From positions 32,001 through 96,000 of IMG/VR virus record IMGVR_UViG_3300045988_176357: a DNA stretch of 64,000 nucleotides; one strand, given 5' to 3'. Positions within the stretch are counted from its first letter, which is position 1; every line of letters starts with the position of its first letter. The DNA is from a virus. Positions 29,988-58,072 of this stretch are shown here, one piece after another. A program made the translations under genes and the position numbers. The notes under the pieces were generated by a model. It was given only the letters and a program-made list of their open reading frames with translations. It made no database searches and was not told where the DNA came from.

Positions 29988-32900
29988 ATGGCTCCATTTA
30001 ATACCTCCGGCAAAGCTCCCAAGAACGCGCAAGACTGGGTCAGGTAGCTTCGCTTTTCCAACGATGTAAACATGAGCACTGTCGGTGTGGATACAGACAG
30101 AGTCACTCCTTAGCTCATGCTCGCTTCCAGCAAGAAACTTCTCGGAATCTCCAGAGGCTAGCAGGAAGGAGACGCGAAGGACTCGCTCAGATACCAGAAA
30201 GTGTTCGGACCTGTAGAGTACTTTGCGTAGAGAATACAGAAGGACGGAGGCAGCGTAGCCAGATCAATGCTGTGGAAGGCTACCAACAGAGGCAACGTCG
30301 ACTTCATCAACTCAGGCAGTCTGTAGCCGCACGTCAGTGCAGTGTTCCACCAGAGTAATCTTTCGCAGTTCGTCGACAACAGCACACCTCTCGACGGCAT
30401 CGACAACTCCATGAAGGTCACACGTGTCGGTGAGGGCGGTATATCCAGCGACTAGGTTGCGCCTATTGAGATGCGTCTTGTGCAGCCTTCTTACTATGGG
30501 TACATCGGTTCGGCTCGTACTGCATAGCGCTGTTACAGAGCCGATACACTCATTCTGACCAAGAAGGGCTGGAAGCCTGTAACACAGATGTCCATGGACG
30601 ACGAGTTCGCCACACTCATAGACGGCAGACCTGCATGGCACAGACCTATAGCGCTCAACAGCTACGACCATGATGGACCTATGTACTGTTACAACGGTCG
30701 CTACATCAAGTTCTCCGTCACTCCCAGTCACAGGATGTATGTAGCACAGGATAAAGACTACAGCATACAGTACATCGATCAGGTCTTCGGCAATACAGTG
30801 AAGGTTCTGTGCGCTGTCGACAAGGCGTCCAAAGTCGACTAGAAGCAGAGGTGGTTCTACTTGCCGCAGGTATAGTCCCCAGCAGCCAACTGCAAGAACA
30901 TATAGAAAGTGGACATTGTCGACTTCGCATAGTTCATGGGCTGGTATCTCAGCTAGGGCAGCCACGACTTACGCACAACCAAGCGAGGACAGAATTACAG
31001 AGTCCGTATTACACAGTCTCCTACAAAGAATCCTGAGCACTATGCACAGGTGCTGTAGCTTATGGACAGACTTCCGTTCACCTACAGCATAGACAGCAGA
31101 GACGGATCAGCCAATATTACAATCCTTCGGAAGCAGCTATACATGTATGTCAAACAGTTCGGACACAGTGAAGACAAGTTCATCCCTGAGTGGATCTTCC
31201 ATGCTCCAACTGCAGCGAGATGGGCATTCGTCGATGCGATCCTTAAGGGTGACGGCAAAGGCGCCAGAGATCTGTGCACCATTTCAAGCAGACTCGCAAA
31301 TGACTTTGCAAGGCTCATGTTCGAGCTCGGACAGTCTGTCAATATCATAAAAGAGCTGCAGAAATACGAGCACACAAAACGTCAGGTCAACCCCTAGGAA
31401 GATTTCCTGTACACAGTTACCTGGCACAGAACATTCTAGTCCACACTGCAAGGGCTTGGATAGAGATCAGGATATTATGTATAGGAATATAAGGGCAAGG
31501 TCTACTGTCCCACTGTCCCGGGAGGTCTCGTATATGTGAAGCTTCCGGGAGCTGCAAAAGGTTTCTGGTGCGGCAACAGCCCCGGCATCACAGGTTACAT
31601 GACAAAGAACGTCATGAAGGGTACAGACGGCAAGCTGTACCAGAACATGCTCAATGTTCGTACAGGTAAGATAGAGCCTGTTGACTCACAGAAAGCTGCA
31701 GCCTCGGTAGTCACAACCAACTAGTACATGAACACGGACGACGAATACGTGTACGCAATGGGCGGTCCCAGAGGCGTACGCATTGTCAAGAAGTCCGATA
31801 TCGACTACATACTTCCTCACTCGGATGATGCGTACTCAATGGCAGCCAACTACGTGCCCATGTATTCAGGCATCAAGTCGATGCGTCTGCTGATGGGCTG
31901 TTTGCATCCGGATACACCTGTGCTTGTTGTAGACAAAGACGGATACACAGACATCATCCCTGCAAAGAGAGTGGGACATGTCGGCACCATATATCTTGCA
32001 GGCTGTGACAGCAACGGCAGCGAAGCTATGTACAAGGTAAGGAACGTTGTTCCCAGAGTGCCTGACAAAAAGAGCAAGTTCCGCAAGATCATACTCCAGT
32101 CCGGCAGAACACTCATCACATCACCGTGCCACAAGTGGTACATATACAAAGACGACAAGTTCAACCTTGTTCCTGCTTCGTAGCTCAAACAGGGCATGCT
32201 TGTTCCAAGAACAGTGTTCCAGACTGTACCTGTAAGGAGTGCAACTGTAGCAGGCAAGCCTGTCACAAGAGAGATAGCAGTCCTTATGGGAAGACTTTGC
32301 GCCTCTTTGTAGGTAGTGGGAACAACTGTCAGGTTCTCTTTCGTTCGCGACAGGAACCCTGAAACAGACCAGAGACAGGACATCACAGACGCTCTTGCAC
32401 AGCTCGGTGTTGTGAACTACACGATATACACGCACAAATAGCAGACCTGGTGCAACATCAAGGACTGCGTCTTCAGGGACTGGATTGCGTAGAACATCGG
32501 TCGCGATTAGCAGCACAAACGCATACCGAAAAGCATGCTCTCACTCGACAGAGGCTATACGAGCATCTTCCTCGATTCCTTCTTCAAGACTCTGGATACA
32601 GTCGCATAGGACATCACAGGTGACAACTGGCTGCTCAGGCTTCCCAATCCCACTGTGCGCGACGGTGTTGCGTTCATGCTCACGAAGATCGACACCGATA
32701 CCAATTTCAGAGACGCAGTGCTTCCTGATCACAGAATCCACAGAGCACTGCACTTGCTTCCCATACAGAGAGGCAAGCACGATGTCATCCTGTAGCCCAT
32801 TGTCAGCATAGAGGAAATGCCGACACCTGGAATGATGATCGACATCGACTGTGACGACAACGTGTACGCAGTTGCGAACGGCATCATCACACATAACAGC

Positions 32901-35900
32901 AAGTACGGAACACAGGCAGTCCCTCTCCAGTAGCGTTAGGCTCCTTTTGTTCGCGCACTTGACTAGCAGTCCGGATAGGACATGCCTACGAGACTCGGAA
33001 GACTCCTCGGCACACAGTGGGCATAGAAGCCAGGTATGGTGAAAGCTGTTCGCAAGGACAGAATCGACATGCTGTACGACGACGGCACGAAGGGATCAGT
33101 GTATCTGTACGACAACTTCCCTGCCAATGCGAAGGGCTGGCTGACCAACTACGTGAAGGTCAAGGCCGGTGACAAGGTTGCTAAGGGGCAGCTGCTGGCG
33201 TCTTCCAACTACACTGACGACAACGGCGTTGCAGCTACAGGCAGGAACCTGCGTGTAGGCTACATGAGCTATCATGGCGCGACGTATGAGGATGCCTGTG
33301 CACTGTCGTAGTCGGCTGCGAAGAAGATGGGCTACACGATCATGTACAAGACAGGCATGGACAAGGACAAGTCCATCCGTACGTCCAAGCAGCTGTACAA
33401 CACCTGGAAGCCAGGACAGTACACAAAGTAGCAGCTGTAGAAGCTGGACGATTTCGGCGTGGTCAAGCCGGGCACTGTTTTGCAACCTGGCGACCCGATG
33501 ATCCTTGGTATCCGAACTACTGAGCCCTCGCCCGGCACACTTGGCAAGAGGATCCTCACCGATGTTACCTAGACATGGTAGCACAGCACACCGGGCACAG
33601 TCACGGACGTGACGAATACCAAGAGCGGCATCAAGGTGTACGCTACCGTCAGCAAGCCACTGTAGGTAGGTGACAAGATGTGCTACGATGAGTAGACGTA
33701 GGTACTGACAGCTGATGGCTGGAAGCGTTTTGCTCAACTCACATTGCATGACAAAGTGTACACGCTCGATCCTGATTCCGATACCATATAGCTGCAGCAC
33801 CCTGTGATGGTACACAGATACAGACATAAGGATCCGATGTACAAGCTCTGCACAAGAGACATCGACCTTATGGTCACTCCCAACCACAGGAACCTTGTCA
33901 GGATACATGCCGCACAGGGACCTGCCAAGTATCGGCTGGTGCAGGCAAGTGAGCATTATGGCGAGCTGCTGTAGATGCGTACAGGTGCGGAAGGTGCTCG
34001 CCGGGATGTGCCCGTGAACTACGCTGCGGACGACGTGTAGCAGTGGGTCGCCTACGACGGCTACGTGTACTGTGCCACTGTGTAGAAGTACCATACGCTG
34101 TACGTGCGCAGGAACGGCAAGGCAGTATGGTCAGGCAACTCTGGCTTCTAGGGCTCCAAAGGCACGGTCGCACAGGTCATCCCTGACGACAAGATGCCGA
34201 GGGACTCGCAGGGCAGGCCGCTGTAGCTGCTGTTCGACCCGCTTGGAATCATCAGTCGCACAAATCCCTCGCAGCTCATGCAGGCAGGACTCGGCAAAGT
34301 GGCAGCCAAGACAGGCAAGCCCATAGTGATGCCTCAGTTCATGCCCAAGGGACAATCAAGGCTCAAGTATGTCAAGGACCTCATGAAGAAGAACAATGTT
34401 CCATGGTCCTAGGACGTGTACGATCCGTAGTCAGGGCGCACAATCAAGAACGTCTTCACAGGCGTCGCCTACTACATGCCTCTCAAGCACCTTGCATAGT
34501 CCAAGATGAGTGCACGAGGCACTGAAGGGTACGATGCATCAGGTGTGCCGAAGTCCGGTGGTGAGCATGGAAGCAAGAAAATAGGACAGCTGTAGAGCAG
34601 CGCTCTGGTCGGACACGACGCCTTCGACTTCCTCACTCAGGACGCCAAGCTCATACGCGGCCAGTCCAACGCCGACTTCTGGCGCTCCATTCGCACAGGC
34701 CAGATACCTGTCGTCCCGGGCTAGCCTCTCGTGCACAAGAAGTTCTTCGCGCACCTGCAGGCTTCTGGACTCAACGTCCGCAGATCCAAGTAGGGCGTCT
34801 CTCTGTTCGCACTCTCCACAAAGGACGTGGACGACATGGCAGGCAACAGATAGCTCAAGTCAACAGACACATACGAGCAGAAGAACTTCAGACCCATCGA
34901 CGGCGGTCTCTTCGGACAGGACATCTTCGGACCCGACGGCATGAACTGGGGCTACATTCAGCTCGACAGCCCTCTCCCGAACCCCGTCATGTAGTAGCCG
35001 CTTGCGCGTCTCCTGCGCATGTCCGACAAGGACTTCCAGGCAGTCGCTCAGGGCAGAGCCACGGTCAATGGCATCTCCAACGCAACATAGATGAAACAGG
35101 CGCTGGCAAAGATCGACCTGTAGAAGGAAGCCCAGCAGTCGCTCGTATAGCTCAAGGATGCACGGCCCTCAAAGAAGGACGCTGCGCTGAAGCGCTATGT
35201 AGCCATTGCCAAGATGCGCGACAACGGTGTTCCTCCTCAGGACTACATGCTGGACAGAATACCGGTGCTGCCTCCCAAGTTCCGCCCGATCACACAGCAC
35301 GGCGGTCTCACAATGGTAGCAGACAGCAACTACCTGTATGCGCAGCTGCTGAACGCAAGGGACGACCTGCGCTAGGCACAGAAAGAAGGACTGCCCGCTG
35401 AGTACATCACCGACGCGAACGCGAAGCTTTACACGAAGTGGAAGGAACTGGTGGGGCTGTACGACCCATAGGACGTGAAGCTGAAGAACAAGTCGGTGAA
35501 GGGCCTGCTGAAGTGGGCCCTCGGCACGAGTCCCAAGCGCTCGGCGTTCGCCACGAAGGTGCTGGGGTCGACGGTGGACACTGTGGGACGCGGAGTCATT
35601 GTTCCCAGTACTAAATTACGATTGAATGAGATCGGGATGCCGGTGGACATGGCGTGGGATGTATATGCGCCTTTTGTGGTGCGCAAGCTGGTGCAGCGGA
35701 ACTACACACCTGTGGACGCCATGAAGATGGTCAAGTAGCGTGTGCCTGCGGCGTTCGATGCACTGCAGCAGGCGGTGAGCGAGCGGCCTGTGGTCATGAA
35801 CCGCGCTCCCTCGCTGCACAAGCTCAGTCTCATGGGCTTCAATGTGAGGCTGACAAGCGGCAAAGCTATCAAGATCAACCCCTCAATTGTTGTCCCGTAC

Positions 35901-37889
35901 GGAGCTGACTTTGACGGAGACTCATGTAAGTCGTTGATAATCATATGGTTACAACAAAAATAGGGCTCTCAGGTAGCAAAAAAGATATATAGAGGCAGTT
36001 AGAATTGGCACTTGACAAATGCGAAATCTGGTGTATATTACCTTCATAATGACAAGGAGCCGCAGCTCCAGAACCAACAATAGAAAGAAGGTAATACAAT
36101 GATTTCCAAAAATGAAAAAGTCTCAGTGATGCCGTATCTTATGGAACTCTCTGAAGTTCCTGTCATCAAAGGATCGGAAGTTGCCAAGTCGCCTACTGTC
36201 ACCGAATGGGATGTTGAGGAAGGCACTTTGGTGAACACCATAGACCCTGCTACAGGTGAGATTGTGTTTGCTCCCATGACAAAGGTATCCAGGCACACAA
36301 ACCTGAAAATGTTCGACGTGAAGTTCGGTATCAGCGGAGCCTATGAGCACATGTCCACAGTGTCTGAGGATCACAGCTTGATCACATATAACAGCACATC
36401 TATGGAACTGGAAAAGACCAGACCTGAAGAAGCCCTCGGCGCATGTGTTCCGATGACCAGATTCAACTGGTGCAACAAGGTTAACGATGAGCAGGGATGT
36501 GCAACTCATATCAACTTCCCGTCTGGTAACTACTCACTGTCCTACGATATGGGTGTCTTCTTTGGCCTCATGGTCGGTGACGGTTGGGTAGCCAGCACAA
36601 GTGCCAACACAAAGGTGGCCCATATCGCTTGCTGCGAAGAGTCCCTGCAGAACTACATATTGGAACTGACAAAGAGCGCGTCTATGCCGTTCACCAAACA
36701 GGCGGCACTATTCAGCTATGCAGCGGATGAACAGAGATTCAGCCAGCGAGACAAGCAGAGATTCACTATCTACATGGATAACGAAGATAAGGCGTTCCTT
36801 GAGAAGCTCATAGGTCATGGTGCCGAGAACAAACATATCCCCTATAAGAGCTTCATGGGAAGCATAGCACACATGATTGGCGTCCTTATGGGTCTGCTTG
36901 CTACAGATGGCGCGGTATCACATACGCCTGGAAGCGGAAACAGAAAGTCAGCTAAGAAAGCTATCATTTACCACACTGTAAGTCCTACACTGAGAGATGG
37001 AGTGCAGGATTTGGCATGCAGGCTTGGTATAAAGACAAGTGTCACGACATACACTGGCACATCTTCTGGAAACACAGCATATGCAATTGTGTTCTCACTT
37101 GAGGACTTTGCTAGACTGTACGATAAGAATCCGACAAGATGTGTGATACCTGTCAGCTATAAGCAGGAAGCTCTTATGCGTATCGTTAACGATGTGCATG
37201 AGAACAATAAAGCGTCGTGCAAGACCACCGTCACTTCTTATGATATAGTGCCGTTCCCTCGCGGACTGTTCTGCGAGTTCAGCTGGGCAAAGATTGTCGA
37301 CATCTCAAGAGACAGTGTCATAGCTGCACGTACCAAAGGCTTCATAAAGAGAAGCGTCGCAAAGCGTATTGCAGATGCTCTTGAGCGTCGCGACTGGTCT
37401 ATCTACAAAGATCCTGCATACCTCAAGAAAGCTGACCAGACGCATCGCACTCCCGCCCAGGCCAAGGCACTTGTGGACAAGTGGATCGCCATGGTACGCA
37501 ACGACGACATCGGCTGGGAAGTCGTGACAGACGTGACTCCGTCCACATGCACTGAGGGATGGGACTGCACAGTGCCTGGACCGTACACCTTCTCGCTCAG
37601 CACAGGAACTATTGTGCAGGACACCGTGAACCTGCACGTGCCTGTTTCACAGGCCGGTATCCGCGACGTGCGCTAGAAGATGATGCCCGAGCACAATCTG
37701 ATCTCAGCGAGAAAGCGCAAGATATTATACGCACCGTAGAAAGCTTATACGCAGGGACTCTATGTAGCCACAAGAATGGGTGAGGCCAAGGACGTGAAGA
37801 CCTTCAACACGCTGCAGGAAGCCAAAGACGCCTACAGAAAAGGCCTCATCGACGTGGATACACCGATACTGATCAAGGAGAAGCGATGA
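29988..37889 (+). CDS. Multisubunit RNA polymerase: beta subunit C-terminal two-thirds fused in frame to beta' N-terminal half, one 2633-codon ORF interrupted by four inteins.
   Basis: ATG 29988, frame 0. Every frame-0 track fragment (30588, 31062, 31536, 31728, 33036, 35475, 35742, 36099) falls in this frame. Codon-checked at 32160-33060, 33680-34150 and 34680-34980. Beta motifs recovered: HSDDAYSMAANYVPMYSG…SKYGTQAVPLQQRQ (≈HDDANRALMGANMQRQAVP), GRNLRVGYMSYHGATYEDACALS, KPL(TAG)VGDKM…SGFQGSKG (≈QPGDKMAGRHGNKG). Beta' motifs recovered: FRPIDGGLFGQDIFGP, NRAPSLHKLS, YGADFDGD…LHVPVS. A roughly 35-aa linker joins beta and beta' with no TGA or TAA. TGA 37887-37889. Confidence 0.75.
30531..31577 (+). 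mobile_element. Intein 1 in RNAP beta, with a LAGLIDADG-like homing-endonuclease segment.
   Basis: Starts AQR|CYRADTLILTKKGWKP (block A). Block B FSVTPSHRMYV. Contains WAFVDAILKGDGKG. Ends …GFWCGN|SPGITGY. Confidence 0.6.
31899..32897 (+). mobile_element. Intein 2 in RNAP beta, inserted within the GANMQRQAVP motif.
   Basis: …SMRLLMG|CLHPDTPVLVVDKDG… Block B LITSPCHKWYIY. Ends …VYAVANGIITHN|SKYGTQAVP (canonical HN+Ser). Confidence 0.7.
33681..34139 (+). mobile_element. Intein 3, a mini-intein in RNAP beta, inserted in GDKM|AGRHGNKG.
   Basis: VGDKM|CYDEQTQVLTADGWKRF… Block B MVTPNHRNLV. Ends …AVWSGN|SGFQGSKG. Codon positions verified. Confidence 0.65.
35922..37622 (+). mobile_element. Intein-like insertion 4 in beta', directly after the catalytic DFDGD motif: Hint block B plus two LAGLIDADG motifs, with non-canonical junctions.
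   Basis: GADFDGD|SCKSL…; block B HMSTVSEDHSLITY; FFGLMVGDGWV and LMGLLATDGAV; …TGTIVQD|TVNLHVPVS. Alignment with E. coli DFDGDQMAVHVP places the exteins at DFDGD / TVNLHVP. The 35940-36098 segment is AT-rich and contains only TAG stops. Confidence 0.5.
36012..36039 (+). promoter_or_regulatory. Sigma70-like promoter (TTGACA-N16-TATATT) plus a downstream GAAGG RBS, inside the intein-4 region and upstream of the internal ATG at 36099.
   Basis: ttgacaaatgcgaaatctggtgtatatt read directly from the sequence. May be coincidental. Confidence 0.25.
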
Positions 37890-38218
37890 CATACGCACAG
37901 GCATACGGACTCACCAAGCAGGCTAACACATAGCAGACTGCGGATAGCGCATTGCAGGATGCCTTCAACCTCGGCGGCCGAATGGGAGGCGCTGTCGGTG
38001 GAGGCACTGCAGGACTTGTAGGCGGAGGTCTTGCAGGCGCCGCGCTTGGGTACAATTTGCCTGACTGGTTCAGCAAGGCACAGAAAGCGGGCAAGCTGAA
38101 CAAGATTCTGGCTGCACTGGGCGGCGGTGTGCTCGGCGCAGGTGCAGGTCTGGTTGCCGGTGCTCATGGCGGTCACTGGATGGGCGGCCGCATCATGGAC
38201 GCAATCTCGAAGCAGTAA
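37886..38218 (+). CDS. Small Gly-rich (glycine-zipper) membrane protein.
   Basis: ATG 37886 overlaps the RNAP TGA (ATGA). Track ORF 37952-38218 extended upstream across 2 TAGs. TAA 38216-38218. Confidence 0.4.
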
Positions 38219-38278
38219 CGTGCAGCTGGGCCGTACAACTAAGAATCGAAGAACATATACCTAGCAGTTGATGGCATA

Positions 38279-38971
38279 ATGCGTACCTACACACAGATAT
38301 ACAAGCAAGCCAGAGATCTGAGAGATGCAGCAAAAGACGCCCGATGGCGTGCTTAGCTGAAGCACTTTGTGGATACCCTTCCGGATCTGTCACTTATGCA
38401 TCCTGATCTGACTCCGCAGCAGTACGCCGCCAAGGTGAAAGCTTCTCCGCCAGTTCCTTTACAGCCTTTCTCAGCTAAAGTTCTGCGTCCCTATTCCAGT
38501 GCTGCCGGTACTTACAAGCAGAACTTACAGAATGCAGCCATAAATGCCCTTGCGCAGACATAGTCCAGTAATAACAGGTTCGCCGTATCTGCTCCCGATA
38601 GGAAAGGCAGACAAGCTGTTGGAACATACCAGATACGTAGGCCAGCATTGGAACAGCTGAAGAAATGGAAGCTTGTTAAGCCGCATGTTACACAATAGGA
38701 TATTCTGTATGATGCATAGCTGAACAAGACACTAGGACCGCAGTACTTTCAGCGTATAAGTAAAGGCAGCCCATCTCCAGCTGTAGCCTATGCAAGATAC
38801 TTCAGAGGGCCTAATGCATATAAGAATGCTCTGAACAGAGGCTAGCTGCCAAAGGGAACCACGGAATAGGCATGGGCAAATAAGTTCAAGTAGGTACAGA
38901 GATACATGCAGAACTATAACAGGTAGCTGAAGCGCATTCCGGCAACCTCGAAAGGACCTGTGCAGCGATGA
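38279..38971 (+). CDS. Hypothetical protein with weak SLT/lytic-transglycosylase-like signature.
   Basis: ATG 38279, frame 2, about 12 TAGs, TGA 38969-38971. AVGTYQIRRP… and AVAYARYFRGPNAY resemble SLT motifs only loosely. Confidence 0.3.
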
Positions 38972-40272
38972 TCCCAGGGCTCCCCGACAGGCGCAACTAC
39001 GGTGACCTCGCGTCGCTGAAGCCATAGCAGACGTACACATTGCTGCGGCAGCTGCACAATGCACAGCGTGCCGGACGGCACGTGGACTTCCGCATAGGTT
39101 CTCCGTAGCTTGGTCTGTTCAGCTGGGCAGCACCTAAAGACCTTCCGACGCAGGCAGGCCAGAAACGGCTCCTCATATCGCAGCCTCTGCACACGTACGC
39201 ATACAAGGACTTCACAGGTCCCATCTATTCAGCTTATGGGCGTGGCACTGTATAGAAGCTTTAGTAGACGCCTATAGTCATCCTGCAGAACAGCCCTGAC
39301 AAGATCAAGTTCACACGCGCCGACAAGCGCAACGCGCCGGTGTACACAATGATCCGCACGCGCAACGGCAACTGGCTCACGTCCATCGTCAGCGACGACG
39401 CGCCGCCTGTCATCAGGCAGTACGACAAGTAGCACTTCAAAAGCATCTCACTGCAGCAGGCAGCCAATCTACTGGACCTTGGCGCTCAGGCCTATCCGAA
39501 GGCGGACGGCACAGGAGCACTCGCACAGGTGCGCAAGAACAGCATATAGGTGTACGGGATCCGCAAGGACAAGAACGGAAATCTGATACGATACACAGAC
39601 CACATAGGCGGACTCAGGGACATGAAGATCCCTCCGCAGCTTGTAGGCAAGGTATTCCGTGTAGAGGTCACAGGTTAGCAGAATGGCAGACCCATACAGC
39701 CCAATACTCTCTCAGGACTGCTCAATGCTTCTCTGCAGAGGAACATACAGGCACGCAAAGACAATAACATCAATCTGTTCATGTATGCACTTGCTCTTGC
39801 AGACAAGCAGGATCAATATGACAAACAGCAAGTTAACGAGCTTGTCTCCCAGCTGCAGTCTCCGAAGCTGCGTACATTGCCGAAGGTAACAGCACAGTAG
39901 TTCCAGGATCAGCTCAGACAGATGCGTGAGGGTACACATCCCATAACTCAGTAGGGCTTCATAATCCATCCCAAAGGTGGAAGACCGCTCAAAGCTAAAT
40001 TGCTGCAGGATGCAGATGTCATAGTACGTGATATATTCCCTGCATAGACACAGGATGGACAACGCGCAGGAGGATTCACGTACAGCTTGCCTGGACAGTA
40101 GACTGTTGTAGGCAGAGTAGGCACCGGTTTTACACATCAGCAGCTGCAGGATATGCTGCAGCATCCATAGCAATACACAGGCAGGACAGCAAAGATACAT
40201 GCGATGTCTCAGTATCCTTCAGGTGCATACAGAGCTCCTGCCTTCATATCTTTCAGAGCGGAAGGAGATTAA
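38968..40272 (+). CDS. ATP-dependent DNA ligase.
   Basis: ATG 38968 (ATGA overlap). Frame 1. Motif I AYPKADGTGA (KxDG). Motif IV (TAG)GFIIHPK. C-terminal motif VI YRAPAFISFRAEGD (≈LRFPRFIRIRED). TAA 40270-40272. Confidence 0.55.
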
Positions 40273-40617
40273 ATGCCCATTCATCAGAACGAAGACGGTA
40301 CCTGGCAGTGGGGCAAGTCAGGTAAGAAATACAAGAACAAGCAGGACGCAATAAAACAGATGCAGGCTATCTTCGCTTCCGGTTACAGAGAACCTGGGCA
40401 ACGCAAGAAAGCCGGGCTTACCTACATGTCTGCGTACCTGATTAAAAGAGCTGGTGGCGGTTCCTTCCAGGACTACATGAACTCCAATATTCCTGTGGAA
40501 AATGTGGAGCAGAGTCCGCAAAACAATGTGAAACAGGAACCTGAGAAACCTGCACAACAGCCGCCGACCCAGCAGCTTAACAGGCTTACGGGAATCTCTT
40601 TCTAGGAAATCAAATAA
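40273..40617 (+). CDS. Hypothetical protein.
   Basis: Track ORF 40273-40605 plus one TAG to TAA 40615-40617. GAAGGAG RBS. Confidence 0.45.
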
Positions 40618-40630
40618 GGACCTTATTAAT

Positions 40631-40969
40631 ATGACTTACATCGAAGCCTACAATATGTATAAGCAGGCTGCTCAGGTGAATGCTCCTGCTGCACATCCTT
40701 CTGTAACACCATCCGTTGCCACGAAACCTGCATTTGGTCAGTCGTATGTTAACGGCGGTTCAAAAATGCCTGACCTGCCGGGCACACGTACAGCAGTCAA
40801 AGGTGATACACCGTATCTGTACTGGACGCAGCTCGGCGGGAATAAACATATGCCGTGGCAAAAATGGCTGGGTCAGTTTCTGAAGGATAATCAGCTGAAA
40901 GCGGACGCCAAAGGCAGAGTTCTCCTGAAGCCAGGTCAGAACTATATGCTTGGCCCTGGAATTGAATAA
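40631..40969 (+). CDS. Hypothetical protein.
   Basis: Complete standard-code ORF with no TAG. TAA stop. Confidence 0.45.
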   Translation: MTYIEAYNMYKQAAQVNAPAAHPSVTPSVATKPAFGQSYVNGGSKMPDLPGTRTAVKGDTPYLYWTQLGGNKHMPWQKWLGQFLKDNQLKADAKGRVLLKPGQNYMLGPGIE

Positions 40970-40980
40970 TTGGAGTGACT

Positions 40981-41832
40981 ATGAGCTTTAAAGACATTTT
41001 CAAAGATATGAACAAGCAGGCGGCTTCGATGCTGACACCTTAGGCCATGCAGGCAGCGGCTGTGCCGCCTGAAGGTACTCCGCCTGCAGGTGCACCTATG
41101 GGAGGTGCTCCGATGGATCCGTCTATGATGGGTGCTCCGGCCGGTATGCCTGTGGATCCGGCGATGGCAGGCGCTGCTCCTGCAGGTGCTCCAATGGATC
41201 CGGCAATGATGGGTGGAGCTCCTATGGGGCCTGGACCTGATCCTGCCGGTGCGCCTGGAATGCCTGGAGCATCCGGAGCGTGGATGACTGATCCGATGTT
41301 CCTTGACTTCCTTATGCAGTCAGGTTTCCAGATCGATCAGGTTGGCAACGTAATCGATCCTAATGGACAGCCTATGGATCCTGCTATAATGGATCAGCTC
41401 TACGCTTAGTTTCAGGCACAGATGGGTGGAGCACAGCCAGACGTACAGGGAGCTCCCGCTGAAGGTGCACCTGCATAGCAGCCGCCGATGGAGCTGCCTT
41501 AGGAAGTGCTCAATCAGGTTGCAGGAATTGTGCAGGATGTTATCGACAGCTCTCTGGATGAGAAACTTTCCGCACTGGAGAAGAAGATATCTGCTTTCGC
41601 ATAGAAGCTCGATACCTTGAAGACCATGCTGGACGATATCCTTATCGGTAACACCAACCAGGATTCGCTTAACAAGTCCTAGGAAGCTTCCATTGACTCA
41701 CAGCTGTAGAAAGATCTGCGTTCAGCACAGCAGGTGGATGTGCAGTAGCCTGGAGGAACAGAACAGCTGCTTGCACCTGCTGCGGCTGTTCCTGCGTCCG
41801 GCAGCATATTGTAGCTTATGAGAGGTGCTTGA
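40981..41832 (+). CDS. Pro/Ala/Met-rich repeat protein (PAGAPM repeats) with a C-terminal coiled coil.
   Basis: ATG 40981, frame 1, includes track ORF 41047-41409, TGA 41830-41832. Confidence 0.4.
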
Positions 41833-42998
41833 TGGAAGTGTCCAGAAACATGAAGATTCTCGCAAAGCTTGCAAGCATAAATAAAGAAGCGCAGGGCAAT
41901 CCGATGCTCGTGTCTTCCCTTATCGGTGCCGGTGCTGGAGGACTTGCAGGAGACCTCACTTCACAGCTGCTGTGGAAGAAGCCGACTAAGACGCAGCGGA
42001 TTCTGTCTGCATTGGTCGGCGCCGGTCTTGGTGCAGGAACTGGCGCTGCTGTTACAGGTTCATTCGGACACAAAGCTGTATAGAATATTCCTGCGAGATT
42101 GCAGTCTATGTATTAGAATGCTATCGGCACAGTGTCAGGCAAATTGCCCTCCAAAGAGGACTTTGCATCCATGTCTCCTACAGCGAAAGCTATGTATGGC
42201 AGCACCAATACAGGAGATAAAGCTGCTGACAGACTAGGATCTGTTGTCAACACTCTGAAAAAGTCAGTAGTCGGATAGAATGACAAAGGCAGCGGTGTTA
42301 TAATTCCAGCACAGTTGGCAGCAGGAGGTATTGGCGGAGTCTTCGGCTGGAAAGGTGCTGTGTAGGCCCTTAACAGGCAGGGCAGACGAATACAGCTTAT
42401 AAAGGCTCTGGAAGATAAAGCAGGTGCTAATCCTGCGTTGTGGCGAGCTGCAGATATCTTGAAGATTTTCAAAATAAAAGGCGGCAATCCTGTTACTAAA
42501 CTTATCGATTAGATACAGGAAAGCTCTAAGCTTACAACGTCACCTCGTGCATATAAAAATAACCTTGCCAGTATAGTTCGGAATTTCCATAAGAGGAATG
42601 AAGCCAGTAAGGCTGCAGGTATGGGAGCTATAAGTGATACAATCCGGCAACGGTATTATGGAAAGTACAGGAACAAAGATCTTGATGCCTTCAGGCTGAA
42701 GGGCAGACAGAATGCCACAGCATTAGAGACCTTGTTCGGTTTGTCGAAACGCAGAGCCGGGCAGGTATTCGACAACACAGGTATCAAGACCGGTATATCC
42801 GCTGACGAAGCTGCCAAACTCCGGAATATGGTGACAAATCGTCCTCTTGGAAAGATGAAAGGTGCGGCTGGACTGCTGGCAGGTATCTTGTCTGCTGCTG
42901 CGTCGGCAGGTGGAGCCGGATATATAGGCAACGCACTTGCAGGTAACAATGCACGGTATCAGCAGGCGCTGACAAACCTGTAGAATGCTTATAAGTAA
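41832..42998 (+). CDS. Gly-rich membrane protein.
   Basis: ATG 41832 (TGATG overlap). Frame 0 links track ORFs 41829-42083 and 42621-42983. TAA 42996-42998. Confidence 0.4.
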
Positions 42999-43009
42999 CA
43001 GGTGCTGAA

Positions 43010-45319
43010 TTGGCTGTCACCACATTAGGCAGATAGGTAATCAAACAAGCGCTTCCTTAGAAGTACAGGAGCTTCGTTGACTAGCCCCTCACAAAGGCTC
43101 GCCAATAGAAGCTCACTACGCAGCTTGCCAAGGACAATCCATAGGCTTACATAGACATCCTGCAGAAGCTGAATGCCATCGCGTAGTCGACTGTATCTAC
43201 GTACGGCAAAGACACTACCATCACTCTGGATGACATAGATGCTGGAGAGAATGTGCGCAAGATGCATGCTAAGCTCCAGTAGCTGATACGTACTGTTGTG
43301 AACAGGAAAGATCTCACTCCGTAGCAGAAGTAGCAGAAGGTCATCTAGCTGGGTTACAAGTACACTGCACTGATGAAGGACCTTGGATTAAAGGATGCTC
43401 AGTAGCGTCGTACAGGTATTGCAAATCAGATTGCATCTGGATCCCGTGGCAACCCTGTACAGCTTATGCAGCTTCTTGTCGGCGACATGCAGATGCGTGA
43501 TGCCGCCAACAGGGACATCCCTTATCTTGCTACTATGCCGTATGTGGACGGTGATTCGCCTATGTCCTACTGGGCATCGAGCATGTCCGGTAGAAAATCA
43601 ACTTACGATACGCAGGCTGCTACAGGCATGGCCGGTTACCTGAACAAACAGGCAACCAATGTTATTCAGGCAACACCTATAGCTATGCGAGACTGCGGCA
43701 CTACCAATACAGGTGTGCCGGTATCAGCTACAGATCCTTAGAATGTAGGCTCCATACTGCTGCGCCCATGGAAGAACCATCCTGCAGGAACACCTGTCAC
43801 GTAGGAGATGCTGGACTAGGCTTAGTAGGGTGACGAGATTGTGATCCGCAGCCCGAACACATGCAAGGCTCACAACGGTGTGTGCGCTATGTGCTCAGGC
43901 ATCCAGGAAAACGGCAAGCTGCCTGCTGTAGGAAGCTACGTGGCACTGAATGCCATGAAGTCCTTCATCTAGCCGCTTACGCAGGCCGGTGTAAGCTGTC
44001 TGCATCCTGACACAAAGGTAAGTCTGGCTGAAGGTGGATATAAAAGAATAGCAGATATACAGATAGGCGATACTGTAATAGGTTGCGACATAGCAGGTAC
44101 AACTACACCTGTAAAGGTCACCAATGTATTCCATAATGGAATTCAGCCTGTATACAGAACTGTATCTGTTACATAGTCTGGTAAGCACTTGTAGCTCTTA
44201 TCCACACTTACACATAAATGCCTTATGCTGATCTAGGATGCACAAGTTCCAGCACTGCTGCCTATAGGGACACAGGCTAAGAAACGCTATATAGTACTGT
44301 CAGATAGGTCTGAGTAGCAAAAAGCTTAGATAATACAGCAGACATTCGTAGGCGATATATAGACCATAGATATCTAGGTTGACCATCCTGATCATCTGTT
44401 CCAACTTGTTGATTATCAAGTGGTAGCAAATTCGAAGCATGGTTCTGGTATGGGCGGCAAAAAGAGCTAGGACCCAGACGGCTAGGACCAGCCTACAGGG
44501 TTCGACTCCATAGCGCGCATGCTCCTTGTGCCCTCTACATTCCCTGGTGGCGCAGTGCTCTCTCAGGTCGATGGTCGCGTGTCATCTGTACGTCCTGCTC
44601 CGCAGGGAGGCAACTACATTACAGTCGGCACCAATACGGTATATGCGCCACGCGTACGTACAGTAACAGTAAAGCCCGGCGACATCGTGTAGGCTGGAGA
44701 CACCCTTACCAATGGCGTGCCTAATCCCATGTAGGTAGTCAAATACAAAGGTATCGGCTAGGGCAGACATTACTTCACGAACAAGCTTTTCGAGCTGCTT
44801 CCGAAATCCGGCGCAGGCACAGCAAGACGTAATGTGTAGCAGTTCGCCCGCGCCCTCATCAACAAGGTTCGCATAACATCCGACCAGGGTTTCGGCGGCT
44901 ATTATCCTGGCGACATTGCAGATTACGACGATATAGCGTAGAAATGGAGACCCAGAGAGGACAGCAAGATGCTGAACCTCAAGGAAGCCACAGGAAAGTA
45001 CCTGTAGGAGCCAGCACTGTATTACAGCATAGGAACAAGAATAACACCCAAGGTAGCCAAGAAACTGCAACAGTACGGTTACCAGCAGGTGAATACCAAT
45101 TAGAATCCTCCGCCGTTCTAGGCGAAGTTCGTAAGCTCCAAAGCGTTCTCTACTACGTAGAGGCGCTGGTTGCCCAGACTTAACGGAGAACGGCTTAAAG
45201 AGGCTATCTTCGACGCTGCAAGAACTGGAATAACTGACAGTTATGACAGCCCTTCATTCGTCGACAAGCTTATCATAGGCCCCTATAATCCGGCAAACAT
45301 TAAACCAGCAGGAATATGA
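43010..45319 (+). CDS. Multisubunit RNA polymerase beta' subunit, C-terminal fragment, carrying one mini-intein.
   Basis: Frame 2 opens after TAA 42992-42994; start codon uncertain (TTG 43010, or ATG 43262 which lies inside homologous sequence). …SGSRGNPVQLMQLLVGDMQM…YWASSMSGRKSTYDTQAATGMAGYLNKQATNVIQATPIAMRDCGT aligns with beta' …[20 protein letters not shown]…[45 protein letters not shown]. C-terminal GDTLTNGVPNPMQVVKYKGIGQGRHYFTNKLFEL… is also conserved. TGA 45317-45319. Confidence 0.7.
43997..44431 (+). mobile_element. Intein 5, a mini-intein in the beta' trigger-loop region.
   Basis: SFI(TAG)PLTQAGVS|CLHPDTKVSLAEGGYKRIADIQIGDTVIG… ends …YQVVAN|SKHGSGMGG. Confidence 0.6.
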
Positions 45320-50087: not shown

Positions 50088-50098
50088 GAGGTAATGCA

Positions 50099-52077: not shown

Positions 52078-53334
52078 ATGAGTATGCTTAACAAGAAAGC
52101 CGCTTTTCTCCACGATCTGCTTGTTCAGTCCGGAGCGCTGCACAAAGTTGCAGGCGGCGAATAGATTACAGAGAAGAAGCTCGATGCTCCGCAGCCCACT
52201 ATCGGCGACAAGATGCAGAATGAAACCGAAGAGGCTACGAATGGCAACTATGCTTCCGATCCCAGTGTGAACGCCGAGGTCAAAGGCACTGTCGAAATGG
52301 TAGAGAACAAGATCGAAGGCGACGATGACAAGAAGGCTGAAAAAGACCTTGCAGAGACCGGTACTGATGTGAAAGACGTATGTCCTGCAGGTATGCCTAC
52401 AGGAACTCCTGCTCAGGTTGCAAAGTCTGCAGCTCTCAAGCAGAAGCTCACGGCCTGCATCAATGCCCAGATCGAAAAAGAAGCCGCTATGAAGAAAGCA
52501 GCTGAAGAAGCTGAGCTTGCCAAACAGGCTGCAGCTAAGCAGGCTGAGAGCAATGAAGTGATGACAGCTACCGAAGTTCTTAACAAGGTTGCATCTTTCA
52601 CTGAGGACAAAACAGCTGAAGAACTTGCAGCGCTTACTGACGACATCGAAGTCAGCTTCAAGAAACTCGCTGCTACCAATCCGCTGTTCAATGTTGCCTG
52701 CGAACAGGCTCTGATTCGCAAGATGGCAGCTGAGGTTGAAGCTCTTTCAGCATCTGAAGGCATTCCTCCGGAAGAAGCGGCTGCGGCGCTCGATGCTGCT
52801 GTCGCTGAAGATCCTGAAGCGATGAGTGAACTTACTAACGAGGCTGAAGGTGAGGCTCTGTCTGATCTTGCAGCTGCGGAACAGGACTCTGCTGCTCTTA
52901 TGGACGGACTCGACCAGACCGCTGCACAGCTCTCTGAAGCTCTTGGTGAACCCGTTACAAGTGACGATATTCTCGCGGCTGTCGATGAAGTCACTGCTCA
53001 GGCCGAACAGCTTGGAGTTCCTCCGGAAGCTCTCGTTCAGGCTGCTGCAGCTGAGATGGCTCAGGGAGCTTAGATCTCTCCTGAAGATGCAGCTGCTGCT
53101 GAACAGCTTGTCAGTGATGCTGCTGCTCAGGGTGTTTCTCCCGAAGAGCTTGTCGAAGGCATTGCTCAGGCTGAAGCTGGTGCTGCCCCTGTCGAAGGTG
53201 CGCCTGCGGAGGCTCCTGCAGCTGAACCTGCACCCACTGAAGAGTAGCTCGCAAAAGAAGCTTGCCTCAGAAAGCTCGCATCTACGAAGCGCGGCGCCAA
53301 TCTCATGAAGATTCTTACTGCCAGCGGCAAGTAA
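52078..53334 (+). CDS. Scaffolding protein: acidic, Ala/Glu-rich and alpha-helical.
   Basis: ATG 52078, frame 1, includes track ORF 52213-53073. Only 3 TAGs. TAA 53332-53334. Sits directly upstream of the decoration and capsid genes. Confidence 0.5.
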
Positions 53335-53344
53335 GGAGCGCACA

Positions 53345-53752
53345 ATGTCACAGGACTTCCAGAAGATCGCTGAAGAAGCGATTAAACAGTGCGCAGAATA
53401 TGAAGCTCGCATTAACCAGCTCCAGGAACAGATTGCTCTCACCAAGAAGGCAAATCTGGCCGATCCTGAGCTGGTTAAGAAGTCCGTGGAAGCTCTCACT
53501 AAAACAGGAGGTATCACGGCATAGCAGGCAGACGAGACAGCTCAGTTGCTTGCCCACGACCCAAATGCCTCCTTAAGAGCTATTCAGGCTCTGTGCGACC
53601 GCTACACTGACGCAGCTCCCATTGTGAAAAAAGAATCCGATATATAGGGCGGCAGGCTTGTTGATACATTCAATAAGCAGGCATCGGCGGCTCCTGTTGA
53701 AGACGCATACGCTGCAGTTGCCCGTGTCCTCGGACTAAAGATGAATAAATAA
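53345..53752 (+). CDS. Hypothetical protein.
   Basis: TAAGGAG RBS, ATG 53345, frame 2, 2 TAGs, TAA 53750-53752. Confidence 0.4.
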
Positions 53753-53763
53753 AGGAAACTATT

Positions 53764-54348: not shown

Positions 54349-54404
54349 TCCGCTGTAAGATAAACCAGGGGAGCGTGTCTCCCCGATAACTATAGGAACG
54401 CAAT

Positions 54405-55418: not shown

Positions 55419-55439
55419 TTGAAATCAGGTTGCTGATTA

Positions 55440-55472
55440 TAAAAGCCCTCCGTAACAGGAGGGCTTTTTTTA
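55440..55472 (+). terminator. Rho-independent terminator.
   Basis: aaagccctcc…ggagggcttt followed by T7. Confidence 0.7.
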
Positions 55473-55520
55473 TGTCCTTAATGTGGTAAACTGTAAGAAA
55501 CCAACAAGAAAGGAAGTATT

Positions 55521-57680: not shown

Positions 57681-58072
57681 CAGGTTTGAACAGTCTGCGA
57701 AGCTTCCTTCTGGTGGCTTTCTTTTTGGCTTTTCTGTGCATCGAATCCGGTGTGACCTATCTGCCACCTGGAGTAGAATTCATGCCGTACAGTGAATTGA
57801 AAGAGCCGTACTTCTTTATGTAGCGCTTTTCCAGTCTGTCCAGCTGCTTGTTAGGCGCCTATTGGAGTATCTAAACTGAGAGCTGATCCCAGTTACCTGT
57901 AGCTTTGAGACGTTTAAGCTCCCTGACCAGCTTTGTACAGCCTGACCAGGGAGCCTTGTGTCGCTACCAGCGCTTTGAGAACGGCGTAGTGGATATGCCT
58001 ATGTAGTGCTTCTGTCCGCTTGTTATGAGATACACATAACCGTTACCCTTCTTGGGTACGTACTAAAAGTAG

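What the first reader, a model, noticed from the sequence alone, without database searches (positions are those of the whole stretch)
29988..45319. Identity of the residue inserted at TAG is not settled: TAG aligns with conserved Gln at some sites and conserved Glu/Asp at others
TAG aligns with Gln in beta KPL(TAG)VGDKM, where bacteria have (I/L)Q(P/V)GDKM, and in beta' AP(TAG)KA, where E. coli has PSQDV. TAG aligns with the near-invariant Glu of the beta' GEPGTQ motif (ours SFI-TAG-PLTQAG). It aligns with the motif IV Glu of ATP-dependent ligases (TAG-GFIIHPK at about 39950, versus EGxxxK). It aligns with Asp in beta HLVDDKMHARS (ours HLA-TAG-SKMSARG). It also occupies the position filled by Asp in the paralogous fibre (LPKG-D/TAG-KGDTG). 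Gln is the default expectation for TAG-recoded phages and Q/E/D swaps are conservative. The suppressor tRNA nonetheless has G1:C72 and G73, like tRNA-Glu, rather than the U1:A72 of typical bacterial tRNA-Gln. If the host uses the indirect Glu-tRNA(Gln) amidation route, partial Glu insertion is conceivable.
Basis: partly seen in the sequence, partly recalled or inferred. Interest (0 to 1): 0.65.

Follow-up and report, generated by a model that had tools for sequence, protein, structure and literature searches.

The report
Phage amber codon encodes glutamate
In this ~190-kb metagenomic phage and its relatives, the "stop" codon TAG is an ordinary sense codon that stands for glutamate, not the glutamine that the literature and the protein databases assume for such phages.

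Summary
The window is a TAG-recoded phage with 582 in-frame TAGs (3.1% of codons).

- **Composition:** Glu from GAA/GAG is only 2.5% and Gln is already 4.9%. E+TAG is 5.6%, as in standard-code relatives.
- **Deep alignments:** 218 TAG sites in 10 genes were compared with 78 relatives whose DNA has no in-frame TAG. The TAG columns have the profile of real Glu codons. Glu is the best fit; Gln is 37 nats worse.
- **Conserved columns (RNAP and ligase):** conserved-Glu columns hold TAG 24, GAR 13, CAR 2. Conserved-Gln columns hold CAR 15, TAG 0 (p=2e-9).
- **Named motifs:** ligase motif IV is Glu in 97/97 homologs and beta' GEPGTQ in 55/58.
- **Strain variation:** among 98%-identical strains, TAG<->GAG changes occur at the synonymous rate. 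TAG<->CAG changes are about 7-fold too rare to be synonymous.
- **Relatives:** six recoded relatives also give Glu. Two of them carry suppressor tRNAs with tRNA-Glu bodies.
- **This phage's suppressor:** it is split by a group I intron. It has tRNA-Gln-like arms but a flipped acceptor stem (G1:C72, C2:G71, U3:A70).

Public databases translate this clade with TAG=Gln. A minor Gln component is not excluded, and no proteomics was possible.

The parts
58891..58924 (-). Suppressor tRNA(CUA), exon 1: positions 1-35 of the tRNA, ending ...CUCU (U35).
   Evidence: ARAGORN with introns allowed. The intron-less allele in L082 gives the same junction. G1:C72, C2:G71, U3:A70, D-stem GUUU/GAAC.
58639..58890 (-). 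252-nt group I intron between U35 and A36 of the anticodon.
   Evidence: Rfam RF00028 scores 31 bits, E=6e-6, below the gathering score of 50. U precedes the 5' splice site, the intron ends in G, and exon CUCU can pair with intron GGAG (sequence). The segment is exactly absent from the 97%-identical L082. A homologous intron (73% identity) sits at the same site in L101.
58597..58638 (-). Suppressor tRNA(CUA), exon 2: A36 to the encoded CCA, discriminator G73.
   Evidence: The spliced sequence is identical to the L082 gene through G73.
29988..37889 (+). RNA polymerase beta fused to the N-terminal half of beta'. It has 64 in-frame TAGs and four inteins (30531-31577, 31899-32897, 33681-34139, 35922-37622).
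   Evidence: Pfam RNA_pol_Rpb2_6 and Rpb1_2 are recorded on homologs. PDB matches to beta and beta'. The 38 extein TAG columns are E 48%, D 16%.
33663..33665 (+). TAG in beta KPL-X-VGDKM.
   Evidence: E. coli has Gln here. The column is variable: E 71 of 120 homologs; K 32, Q 21, E 8 of 77 more distant loci; L001 has CAG and L005 has AGA. Uninformative.
34497..34499 (+). TAG in beta HLA-X-SKMSARG.
   Evidence: E. coli has Asp. Homologs: E 89, D 26; E 47, D 10 of 78.
37737..37739 (+). TAG in beta' YAP-X-KAY.
   Evidence: It aligns with Thr/Ser of solved bacterial beta'. Homologs: E 82, Q 16; L001 and L005 have TAG here.
38968..40272 (+). ATP-dependent DNA ligase with an N-terminal LigD-type phosphoesterase domain; 13 TAGs.
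   Evidence: Pfam LigD_N. PDB matches. Motifs KADG, FRVEV, X-GFIIHPK and LKAK. TAG columns: E 35%, D 18%.
39952..39954 (+). TAG at ligase motif IV (X-GFIIHPK).
   Evidence: 97 of 97 standard-code homologs have Glu.
42995..45319 (+). C-terminal half of RNA polymerase beta', with 35 TAGs and one intein (43997-44431).
   Evidence: Pfam RNA_pol_Rpb1_5 is recorded on the syntenic genes of relatives. Plurality residue at 35 TAG sites: E 15, K 7, D 3, Q 1.
43970..43972 (+). TAG in beta' SFI-X-PLTQAG (the GEPGTQ motif).
   Evidence: E in 55 of 58 DNA-verified standard-code relatives.
13262..13264 (+). TAG in the collagen-like fibre repeat LPKG-X-KGDTG. Paralogous repeats have Asp at 13772 and 4941.
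   Evidence: TAG occupies the x position of G-x-y triplets 7 times.
35922..37622 (+). LAGLIDADG intein inside beta', written almost without TAG (3 TAG and 31 GAA/GAG in 567 codons).
   Evidence: It is an internal contrast with the exteins (38 TAG and 21 GAA/GAG in 1231 codons).
52078..56309 (+). TAG-poor genes that write Glu as GAA/GAG: 52078-53334 (12.6% E), 54405-55418 (capsid-like, a guess from position only) and 55521-56309 (7.7% E, no TAG).
   Evidence: The fewer TAGs a gene has, the more GAA/GAG it has.

Best explanation
TAG is a sense codon for glutamate in this phage and in its whole recoded clade. TAA and TGA remain the stops. TAG supplies 55% of all Glu codons in the window (582 TAG against 469 GAA/GAG).

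Decoding is by a phage-encoded tRNA with anticodon CUA. In this genome the tRNA gene must first lose a self-splicing group I intron that sits between anticodon bases 35 and 36.

The most likely charging route (inferred, not shown):
- The host glutamyl-tRNA synthetase, probably a non-discriminating one that already accepts both tRNA-Glu and tRNA-Gln bodies, loads Glu onto the suppressor.
- The suppressor lacks the acceptor-stem marks U1:A72, G2:C71 and G3:C70. These direct a tRNA to GlnRS or to the GatCAB amidotransferase.
- Glu-tRNA(CUA) is therefore not converted to Gln-tRNA and is delivered to TAG as Glu.

Shown by computation: the TAG = Glu assignment, the tRNA gene, the intron and its splice junction, and the tRNA-Glu-type suppressors in relatives. 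Inferred: which enzyme charges the tRNA, escape from amidation, and self-splicing in vivo.
For: **1. Composition.** E(GAA+GAG) is 2.52%, Q is 4.90% and TAG is 3.12%, so E+TAG is 5.6%. TAG-poor genes and the TAG-poor intein have normal or high GAA/GAG. Across relatives, Q stays at 3.5-4.0% while E falls as TAG rises.

**2. RNAP exteins against 120 homologs.** TAG columns are E 47.9, D 16.0, Q 10.7. Real E codons give E 52, Q 13, D 9. Real Q codons give Q 32, E 10. A typical 55-60%-identical standard-code homolog shows about 25 E, 6 D and 1 Q at the 38 TAG columns.

**3. The Q in close homologs is an artefact.** In P0004 all 57 in-frame TAGs were written as Q by the database.

**4. DNA-verified standard-code relatives.** 78 relatives have zero in-frame TAG in 974-4974 aligned codons. 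At 218 TAG sites in 10 genes the plurality residue is E 71, D 38, Q 3. Columns at least 80% conserved: E 20, Q 2. Log-likelihood: E best, Q -36.7, D -46.8 nats.

**5. Conserved columns in RNAP and ligase.** Conserved-E columns hold TAG 24, GAR 13, CAR 2. Conserved-Q columns hold CAR 15, TAG 0. Fisher p=2e-9.

**6. Functional motifs.** Ligase motif IV is E in 97/97. GEPGTQ is E in 55/58.

**7. Microdiversity in 98%-identical strains.** TAG<->GAG: 2 observed, 2.2 expected if synonymous. TAG<->CAG: 2 observed, 15.0 expected if synonymous; Poisson P is about 4e-5 by my own arithmetic.

**8. Relatives.** Six recoded relatives each give E as best fit.

**9. Suppressors in relatives.** In the same tRNA-Met/tRNA(CUA) slot, L099 and L100 have tRNA-Glu-like bodies. 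These show the GUCUAG(U/C)GGC... D-arm and a 4-nt variable loop, and L099 aligns end to end with E. coli tRNA-Glu.

**10. Acceptor stems.** None of the four clade suppressors has U1:A72.
Against: - There is no protein-level evidence.
- The window's own tRNA is not tRNA-Glu-like. From A7 to U35 it is almost identical to bacterial tRNA-Gln(CUG). ARAGORN gives it a 6-nt variable region, not the 4-nt one of tRNA-Glu.
- A two-profile fit gives 0.89 Glu-like (bootstrap 0.76-0.99), so up to about a quarter Gln-like signal is not excluded.
- The window has extra Gln, and it has CAG at a few conserved-Glu columns where relatives have TAG, for example 34281.
- TAG<->CAG polymorphisms are more frequent than other non-synonymous first-position changes.
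- The host, its GluRS type and the other two thirds of the 192-kb genome were not seen, so a phage-encoded synthetase is possible.
- Homologs are phylogenetically related, so the site counts are not fully independent. For the P-numbered homologs, standard-code status was inferred from composition, not from DNA.
Confidence: 0.9

Rival explanations
1. TAG = glutamine (standard phage code 15). The clade has simply replaced many Glu by Gln.
For: This is the default in the literature. E. coli has Gln at one TAG site. The window tRNA's D-arm and anticodon arm resemble tRNA-Gln(CUG). A CUA anticodon is one base from CUG.
Against: - It would give a proteome with 8% Gln and 2.5% Glu.
- It would put Gln at invariant Glu positions such as ligase motif IV (97/97 E) and GEPGTQ (55/58 E).
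- TAG never occupies a conserved-Gln column in RNAP or ligase: 0 against 15 CAR.
- The fit is 36.7 nats worse than Glu.
- TAG<->CAG changes are about 7-fold rarer than synonymous transitions.
- The acceptor stem lacks U1:A72, G2:C71 and G3:C70.
- Relatives use tRNA-Glu-type suppressors.
Confidence: 0.02
2. Dual decoding. The suppressor is charged with Glu and a fraction is amidated to Gln (or is charged by GlnRS), so TAG yields mostly Glu with a minority of Gln.
For: - tRNA-Gln-like arms.
- E/Q mixture estimate 0.89, bootstrap 0.76-0.99.
- Excess Gln (4.9% against 3.5-4.0% in relatives), and CAG at conserved-Glu columns where relatives have TAG.
- TAG<->CAG polymorphisms (2-4 per comparison) exceed other non-synonymous NAG changes (0-1).
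Against: - The mixture fit is not significantly better than pure Glu (0.78 nats).
- G1:C72 removes the pair that GatCAB is known to need (established knowledge, not tested here).
- TAG sits at invariant catalytic Glu positions.
- T->C transitions that turn TAG(Glu) into CAG(Gln), a conservative change, explain the CAG excess without ambiguity.
Confidence: 0.07
3. TAG = aspartate or another residue (Lys, Trp, Tyr, pyrrolysine).
For: Asp is the second commonest residue at TAG columns (13-18%), and the fibre paralogs have Asp. ARAGORN labels any CUA tRNA as 'Pyl'. The D-arm is also shared with some tRNA-Trp and tRNA-Gly.
Against: Log-likelihood relative to Glu: D -46.8, K -76, Y -235, W -251 nats. 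Conserved columns (at least 80%) at TAG sites: E 20, D 0. Real Glu codons show the same share of Asp in homologs. No Pyl genes are seen in the window.
Confidence: 0.01

Closest known systems
TAG-recoded phages using genetic code 15 (crAss-like, Lak and other gut phage clades)
   Same: There is dense in-frame TAG in long ORFs, and TAA/TGA are kept as stops. The suppressor tRNA(CUA) is phage-encoded. Some genes are left TAG-free, and relatives of the same clade use the standard code (literature).
   Different: The amino acid differs. In those phages TAG aligns with Gln (77-85% in Lak terminases), and proteomics showed Gln in two crAss-like phages (abstract of PMC9523058). Here TAG aligns with Glu by every test. 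Several structural genes here are TAG-poor.
Peritrich ciliate nuclear code (NCBI table 30, TAA/TAG = Glu); recalled from memory, not checked here
   Same: TAG is read as glutamate.
   Different: That code is eukaryotic and nuclear, TAA is reassigned too, and decoding is by cellular tRNAs. Here a virus reassigns TAG alone, inside a host that presumably uses the standard code.
Indirect Gln-tRNA(Gln) pathway: non-discriminating GluRS plus GatCAB, which recognises U1:A72 of tRNA-Gln (established biochemistry, from memory)
   Same: The window suppressor keeps a tRNA-Gln-like D-arm and anticodon stem, the parts that tRNA-Gln and tRNA-Glu share as GluRS substrates. A Glu-charged tRNA-Gln-like molecule is the normal intermediate of that pathway.
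   Different: The acceptor stem is flipped (G1:C72, C2:G71, U3:A70), so the amidation step should fail and the intermediate would become the end product. Charging and amidation were not tested.
Group I introns in bacterial tRNA anticodon loops (cyanobacterial tRNA-Leu(UAA), Azoarcus tRNA-Ile; subgroup IC3, from memory)
   Same: A small (~250 nt) group I intron lies in the anticodon loop. The 5' exon ends in U, the intron ends in G, and the conserved core matches Rfam RF00028.
   Different: The host gene is an amber suppressor, and the insertion is between positions 35 and 36. The score is below Rfam's gathering threshold. The intron is present or absent among 97%-identical strains.

Membership tests
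Genetic code 15 phage (TAG = Gln) | Many in-frame TAG codons in otherwise intact ORFs; TAA/TGA as stops | tested here: met
   582 in-frame TAGs. The longest ORF grows from 531 to 2658 aa when TAG is read through.
Genetic code 15 phage (TAG = Gln) | Phage-encoded suppressor tRNA with anticodon CUA | tested here: met
   tRNA(CUA) at 58597-58924 on the minus strand. The junction is confirmed by the intron-less allele in L082.
Genetic code 15 phage (TAG = Gln) | TAG aligns with Gln in standard-code homologs | tested here: not met
   TAG columns match Glu. Q is the plurality at 3 of 218 sites, there are 0 TAGs at conserved-Gln columns, and Gln fits 36.7 nats worse.
Bacterial tRNA-Gln | U1:A72, G2:C71, G3:C70 acceptor stem (GlnRS identity set; U1:A72 for GatCAB; from established knowledge) | tested here: not met
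   The window tRNA has G1:C72, C2:G71 and U3:A70. All 26 listed bacterial tRNA-Gln genes sharing its D-arm begin with T, and all but one begin TGGGG/TGAGG.
Bacterial tRNA-Gln | Body similarity (D-arm, anticodon stem) and a YUG anticodon | tested here: inconclusive
   A7-U35 is identical to Hyphomicrobiales tRNA-Gln(CUG) except for 1 nt, and the anticodon stem is the same. The anticodon is CUA and position 38 is A, not C.
Bacterial tRNA-Glu | G1:C72, U11:A24, U13:G22 (E. coli GluRS identity elements, from memory) | tested here: met
   All three are present in the window tRNA. They are not unique to tRNA-Glu: the tRNA-Gln, tRNA-Trp and tRNA-Gly genes with the same D-arm share 11:24 and 13:22.
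Bacterial tRNA-Glu | Four-nucleotide variable loop (no residue 47) and overall tRNA-Glu body | tested here: not met
   The window tRNA has a 6-nt variable region by ARAGORN. The feature is met by the suppressors of relatives L099 and L100 (variable loop GAAC; L099 aligns end to end with E. coli tRNA-Glu).
Group I intron | Rfam RF00028 covariance model at or above the gathering score | tested here: inconclusive
   31 bits against a gathering score of 50, local E=6e-6. The conserved core segments align.
Group I intron | U before the 5' splice site, terminal G, P1 pairing with the 5' exon, precise excision restoring the host gene | tested here: met
   ...CUCU|G...AAUG|AAA; exon CUCU can pair with intron GGAG. 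The 252 nt are exactly absent from L082, which leaves an intact tRNA. Catalysis itself was not tested.
Glu-charged suppressor that escapes amidation (proposed mechanism) | Aminoacylation by GluRS and no conversion by GatCAB or charging by GlnRS | not testable with these tools
   The host is unknown. Shine-Dalgarno-like motifs precede 27 of 35 genes. No synthetase was found in the window, and the rest of the genome was not seen.

The most novel reading that the evidence does not exclude
A widespread clade of ~190-kb phages runs a genetic code not described for any virus or bacterium: TAG = Glu, with TAA/TGA as stops. The code is implemented by interchangeable suppressor tRNAs of different ancestry sitting in one genomic slot. 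One kind is a tRNA-Gln-like molecule whose acceptor stem has been flipped. It would enter the host's Glu-tRNA(Gln) pathway at the GluRS step but could not be amidated, which turns a normally toxic intermediate into the decoder of a new codon. In some strains a mobile group I intron sits in the anticodon itself. A residual Gln fraction at TAG (statistical proteins) would be part of this reading.
Probability: 0.35. Interest if true: 0.92.

Novelty: new variant of a known kind. Interest (0 to 1): 0.86.

Why it matters
- **Coding rules.** Stop-codon recoding in phages is treated as two cases, TAG=Gln and TGA=Trp (or Gly). Gene callers, annotation pipelines and NCBI translation tables offer only those.
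- **Database errors.** If TAG=Glu here, every protein of this clade in public databases carries Gln where the phage makes Glu, at about 3% of positions. These include catalytic residues. That affects structure prediction, family profiles and proteomic searches.
- **Method.** The identity of a reassigned codon has to be inferred clade by clade. The usual shortcuts (terminase alignments that include code-15-translated relatives, or the tRNA's resemblance to tRNA-Gln) can give the wrong answer.
- **Mechanism.** This is a natural case in which tRNA identity for GluRS, GlnRS and GatCAB could be studied. It also offers a possibly useful orthogonal Glu amber suppressor.
- **Abundance.** The phage is common: one of its proteins is indexed in 57 blocks of the assembly collection.

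Tried and rejected
- **Default tRNA scans.** Default ARAGORN and Rfam gathering scans found only tRNA-Met. The suppressor appeared only when introns were allowed.
- **Splice junction.** My first splice, one base off, gave anticodon CUG (Gln). I rejected it because it violates the group I rules (U before the 5' site, terminal G) and because the intron-less L082 allele reads CUA.
- **tRNA BLAST.** BLAST of the tRNA against phage records gave a mix of isotypes (Asn, Arg, Trp, Lys, suppressors) and was uninformative. Against E. coli it gave only a 26-nt match.
- **Anticodon-arm scan.** Scanning viral contigs for the anticodon arm returned unrelated suppressors, some with long variable arms.
- **Ligase domain.** Pfam found only the LigD_N domain in the ligase, and PDB matches to the catalytic part were weak. 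The motif IV claim was settled instead with 97 homologs.
- A single-protein query with the capsid-like protein found nothing.
- **Phage collection.** The INPHARED collection has no close relative; the best hit is 29% identity, Salmonella phage Arash.
- **Codon comparison with L001.** It looked ambiguous: TAG in L001 faces CAR 14 and GAR 15 in the window. Checking those columns against standard-code homologs showed they are mostly Glu/Asp.
- **Not done.** No positive control on a proven TAG=Gln phage was run. The internal controls were the real Glu, Gln and Asp codons of the same alignments, and each was classified correctly.

Full report
**What the window is.**
- Read with the standard code, the longest ORF is 531 aa. 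Read with TAG as sense, nearly the whole plus strand closes into long ORFs, up to 2658 aa.
- In 44 plus-strand ORFs (18,633 codons) TAG occurs in frame 582 times, or 3.12%.
- The window is identical to part of ENA record ERZ28595212, LIJU14-1_SAMEA2338819_METAG-scaffold_51, which is 192,159 bp long. One of its proteins is indexed in 57 blocks of public assemblies.
- The finding's range runs from the start of an RNA polymerase beta/beta' fusion gene (29988-37889; 64 TAGs, four inteins). It continues through a ligase (38968-40272) to the end of the second half of beta' (42995-45319; one intein).

- The five TAG codons in the range are real.
- In HMMER alignments to solved bacterial RNAP, KPL-X-VGDKM faces Gln of E. 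coli and HLA-X-SKMSARG faces Asp, as stated.
- YAP-X-KAY faces Thr/Ser, not Gln.
- In the phage's own family these columns read:
  - KPL-X: variable (E 71 of 120 homologs; K 32, Q 21, E 8 of 77 more distant loci).
  - AP-X: E 82.
  - HLA-X: E 89, D 26.
  - SFI-X-PLTQ: E 55/58.
  - Ligase X-GFIIHPK: E 97/97.
- The fibre comparison (LPKG-X-KGDTG against LPKG-D-KGDTG) is real but lies at 13262/13772/4941, outside the stated range.

**Composition.**
- Gln from CAA/CAG is already 4.9%, while Glu from GAA/GAG is only 2.5%.
- Adding TAG to Glu gives 5.6%, the value seen in standard-code relatives (5-6.5%). Adding it to Gln gives 8%.
- Genes with few TAGs have normal or high GAA/GAG (4-12.6%). TAG% correlates negatively with E%.
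- The LAGLIDADG intein inside beta' has 3 TAG and 31 GAA/GAG in 567 codons. The exteins have 38 TAG and 21 GAA/GAG in 1231 codons.
- Across seven related loci, Q stays at 3.5-4.0% while E drops as TAG rises.

**Deep alignments.**
- The RNAP exteins found 120 full-length homologs.
- At the 38 TAG columns they have E 47.9%, D 16.0%, Q 10.7%. This is the profile of the phage's real Glu codons (E 52, Q 13, D 9), not of its Gln codons (Q 32, E 10).
- The homologs split cleanly into two groups.
  - P0019-P0120 have normal composition. A typical 55-60%-identical member shows about 25 E, 6 D and 1 Q at the TAG columns.
  - P0001-P0018, the closest clade, have 1.2-3.4% E and 5.7-8.6% Q. They show 'Q' both at our TAG columns and at 10-13 of our 21 true Glu columns.
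- DNA of one of them (L001) shows why: its 57 in-frame TAGs were all written as Q by the database. Close homologs therefore bias any naive tally toward Gln.
- To remove that bias I fetched 80 related loci. I kept the 78 with no in-frame TAG in 974-4974 aligned codons.
- Over 218 TAG sites in 10 genes:
  - The mean column profile is E25 D13 A7 K7. Real Glu codons give E29 D15 K8; real Gln codons give Q21 E12 K10.
  - The plurality residue is E 71, D 38, Q 3.
  - Columns at least 80% conserved are E 20, Q 2.
  - Glu is the best of 20 candidates. Gln is 36.7 nats worse and Asp 46.8.
- The real Glu, Gln and Asp codons of the same alignments are classified correctly.
- In RNAP plus ligase, conserved-Glu columns hold TAG 24, GAR 13, CAR 2. 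Conserved-Gln columns hold CAR 15, TAG 0 (Fisher p=2e-9).

**Shallow divergence.** Five strains about 98% identical to the window cover 13-18 kb.
- In the longest comparison, TAG<->GAG changes number 2 against 2.2 expected from the T<->G rate at four-fold sites.
- TAG<->CAG changes number 2 against 15.0 expected from the synonymous T<->C rate.
- So TAG/GAG behaves as a synonymous pair and TAG/CAG does not.
- The numbers are small, but the test is independent of the alignments above.

**The clade.**
- Six other recoded genomes (L001, L005, L099-L102) each give Glu as best fit.
- The ligase and capsid-like protein searches show the same database split. A low-E/high-Q group of 17 clusters (P0121-P0137) is evidently translated with code 15.

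**The suppressor tRNA.**
- The gene lies on the minus strand at 58597-58924, next to tRNA-Met.
- It is interrupted by a 252-nt group I intron between U35 and A36. Rfam RF00028 scores 31 bits (E=6e-6), which is below the gathering score.
- A 97%-identical strain (L082) has the same gene without the intron, which fixes the anticodon as CUA.
- A scan of bacterial genomes for its D-arm shows that its best match is tRNA-Gln(CUG). The two are nearly identical from A7 to U35 and share the same anticodon stem.
- Every one of those tRNA-Gln genes begins with U1 paired to A72, and all but one has G2:C71 and G3:C70. The phage tRNA has G1:C72, C2:G71 and U3:A70.
- In relatives, the same genomic slot holds other suppressors.
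  - L099 and L100 have tRNA-Glu bodies. L099 aligns over its full length with E. coli tRNA-Glu, and both have the 4-nt variable loop.
  - L101 has a different body and a homologous intron at the same site.
- Standard-code relatives have no tRNA there.
- None of the four suppressors has U1:A72.

**Mechanism.**
- Established biochemistry (from memory, not tested here) says three things:
  - GlnRS reads U1:A72, G2:C71 and G3:C70.
  - Bacterial GatCAB needs U1:A72.
  - Non-discriminating GluRS accepts both tRNA-Glu and tRNA-Gln bodies and does not insist on base 36.
- A tRNA-Gln-like body with a flipped acceptor stem would therefore be glutamylated and stay glutamylated. tRNA-Glu-derived suppressors would reach the same end directly.
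- This fits the data but is inference.
- The host is unknown. Shine-Dalgarno-like motifs before 27 of 35 genes argue weakly against Bacteroidota.
- No synthetase is in the window, and two thirds of the genome were not seen.

**What remains open.**
- A two-profile fit gives 0.89 Glu-like (0.76-0.99), not significantly different from 1.
- The window has more Gln than its relatives. It has CAG at a few conserved-Glu columns where relatives keep TAG, for example 34281 (E 75/78).
- TAG<->CAG polymorphisms, though rare, exceed other non-synonymous first-position changes.
- The simplest reading is frequent T->C transitions converting TAG(Glu) to CAG(Gln), a mild substitution. A minor Gln fraction in decoding cannot be excluded without mass spectrometry.

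**Novelty.**
- Full-text searches found TAG=Gln assumed or inferred throughout.
- One study of Lak phages noted occasional alignment with Glu but concluded Gln.
- No report of a TAG=Glu phage code was found.
- The library is incomplete, so prior description elsewhere cannot be ruled out.

**Verdict.** The interpretation needs inverting: Glu is the rule, and Gln at most a trace.

Noticed in passing
window 58639-58890 (-); L082 2636-2709; L101 16817-17164: The suppressor tRNA gene is polymorphic for a group I intron placed inside the anticodon, between bases 35 and 36. The intron is present in the window and absent from a 97%-identical strain. A 73%-identical intron sits at the same site in a relative whose tRNA body is different. 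A one-base shift of the splice site would create a CUG (Gln) anticodon.
   Followed up: partly
window 30531-31577, 31899-32897, 33681-34139, 35922-37622, 43997-44431; also 50075-52027: The RNA polymerase genes carry five inteins, and another ORF has a Hint-like insert (CFVAGT...VVHN|C). The LAGLIDADG intein at 35922-37622 is almost free of TAG and rich in GAA/GAG, as if recently acquired from a standard-code source.
   Followed up: partly
P0001-P0018, P0121-P0137; L001 10001-16306: Public protein databases hold this clade's proteins translated with TAG=Gln. In P0004 all 57 in-frame TAGs are rendered Q. The proteins show 1-3.7% Glu and 6-10.6% Gln as a result.
   Followed up: yes
window 7679-8740, 52078-53334, 54405-55418, 55521-56309: Several genes, including a very Glu-rich (12.6%) scaffold-like protein and a capsid-like protein, have almost no TAG. 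They are probably structural genes (a guess from position only; Pfam found nothing). This does not follow the published pattern that late structural genes are the recoded ones.
   Followed up: no
window 34281-34283 and six other CAG/CAA codons listed: CAG (Gln) sits at columns that are conserved Glu in standard-code relatives. At 34281 the standard-code count is E 75/78 and the recoded relatives L001 and L005 have TAG. Overall Gln is 4.9% against 3.5-4.0% in relatives. This suggests TAG->CAG transitions, or a trace of Gln decoding.
   Followed up: partly
window 57631-58098 (-) and 58073-58591 (-): A GIY-YIG homing-endonuclease-like ORF, itself containing six TAGs, and a small Cys-rich ORF lie immediately downstream of the suppressor tRNA. 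Relatives L099 and L102 also have GIY-YIG genes in this region.
   Followed up: no
window 58932-59007 (-): The neighbouring tRNA-Met(CAU) has a G1.A72 mismatch at the top of the acceptor stem. It lacks the three G:C pairs of an initiator anticodon stem, so its role (initiator, elongator or tRNA-Ile2 precursor) is unclear.
   Followed up: no
window 3870-6767 and 12671-14440: Two large fibre proteins contain collagen-like G-x-y runs. TAG takes the x position seven times (G-TAG-K, G-TAG-T), while GAA/GAG does so once.
   Followed up: partly
window 17296-18108 (-), 1065-1688, 26413-27249: There is a patatin-like phospholipase on the minus strand, a C92/NlpC-P60-type amidase, and a weak match (below Pfam's cut-offs) to alpha/beta hydrolases. 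All have in-frame TAGs.
   Followed up: no
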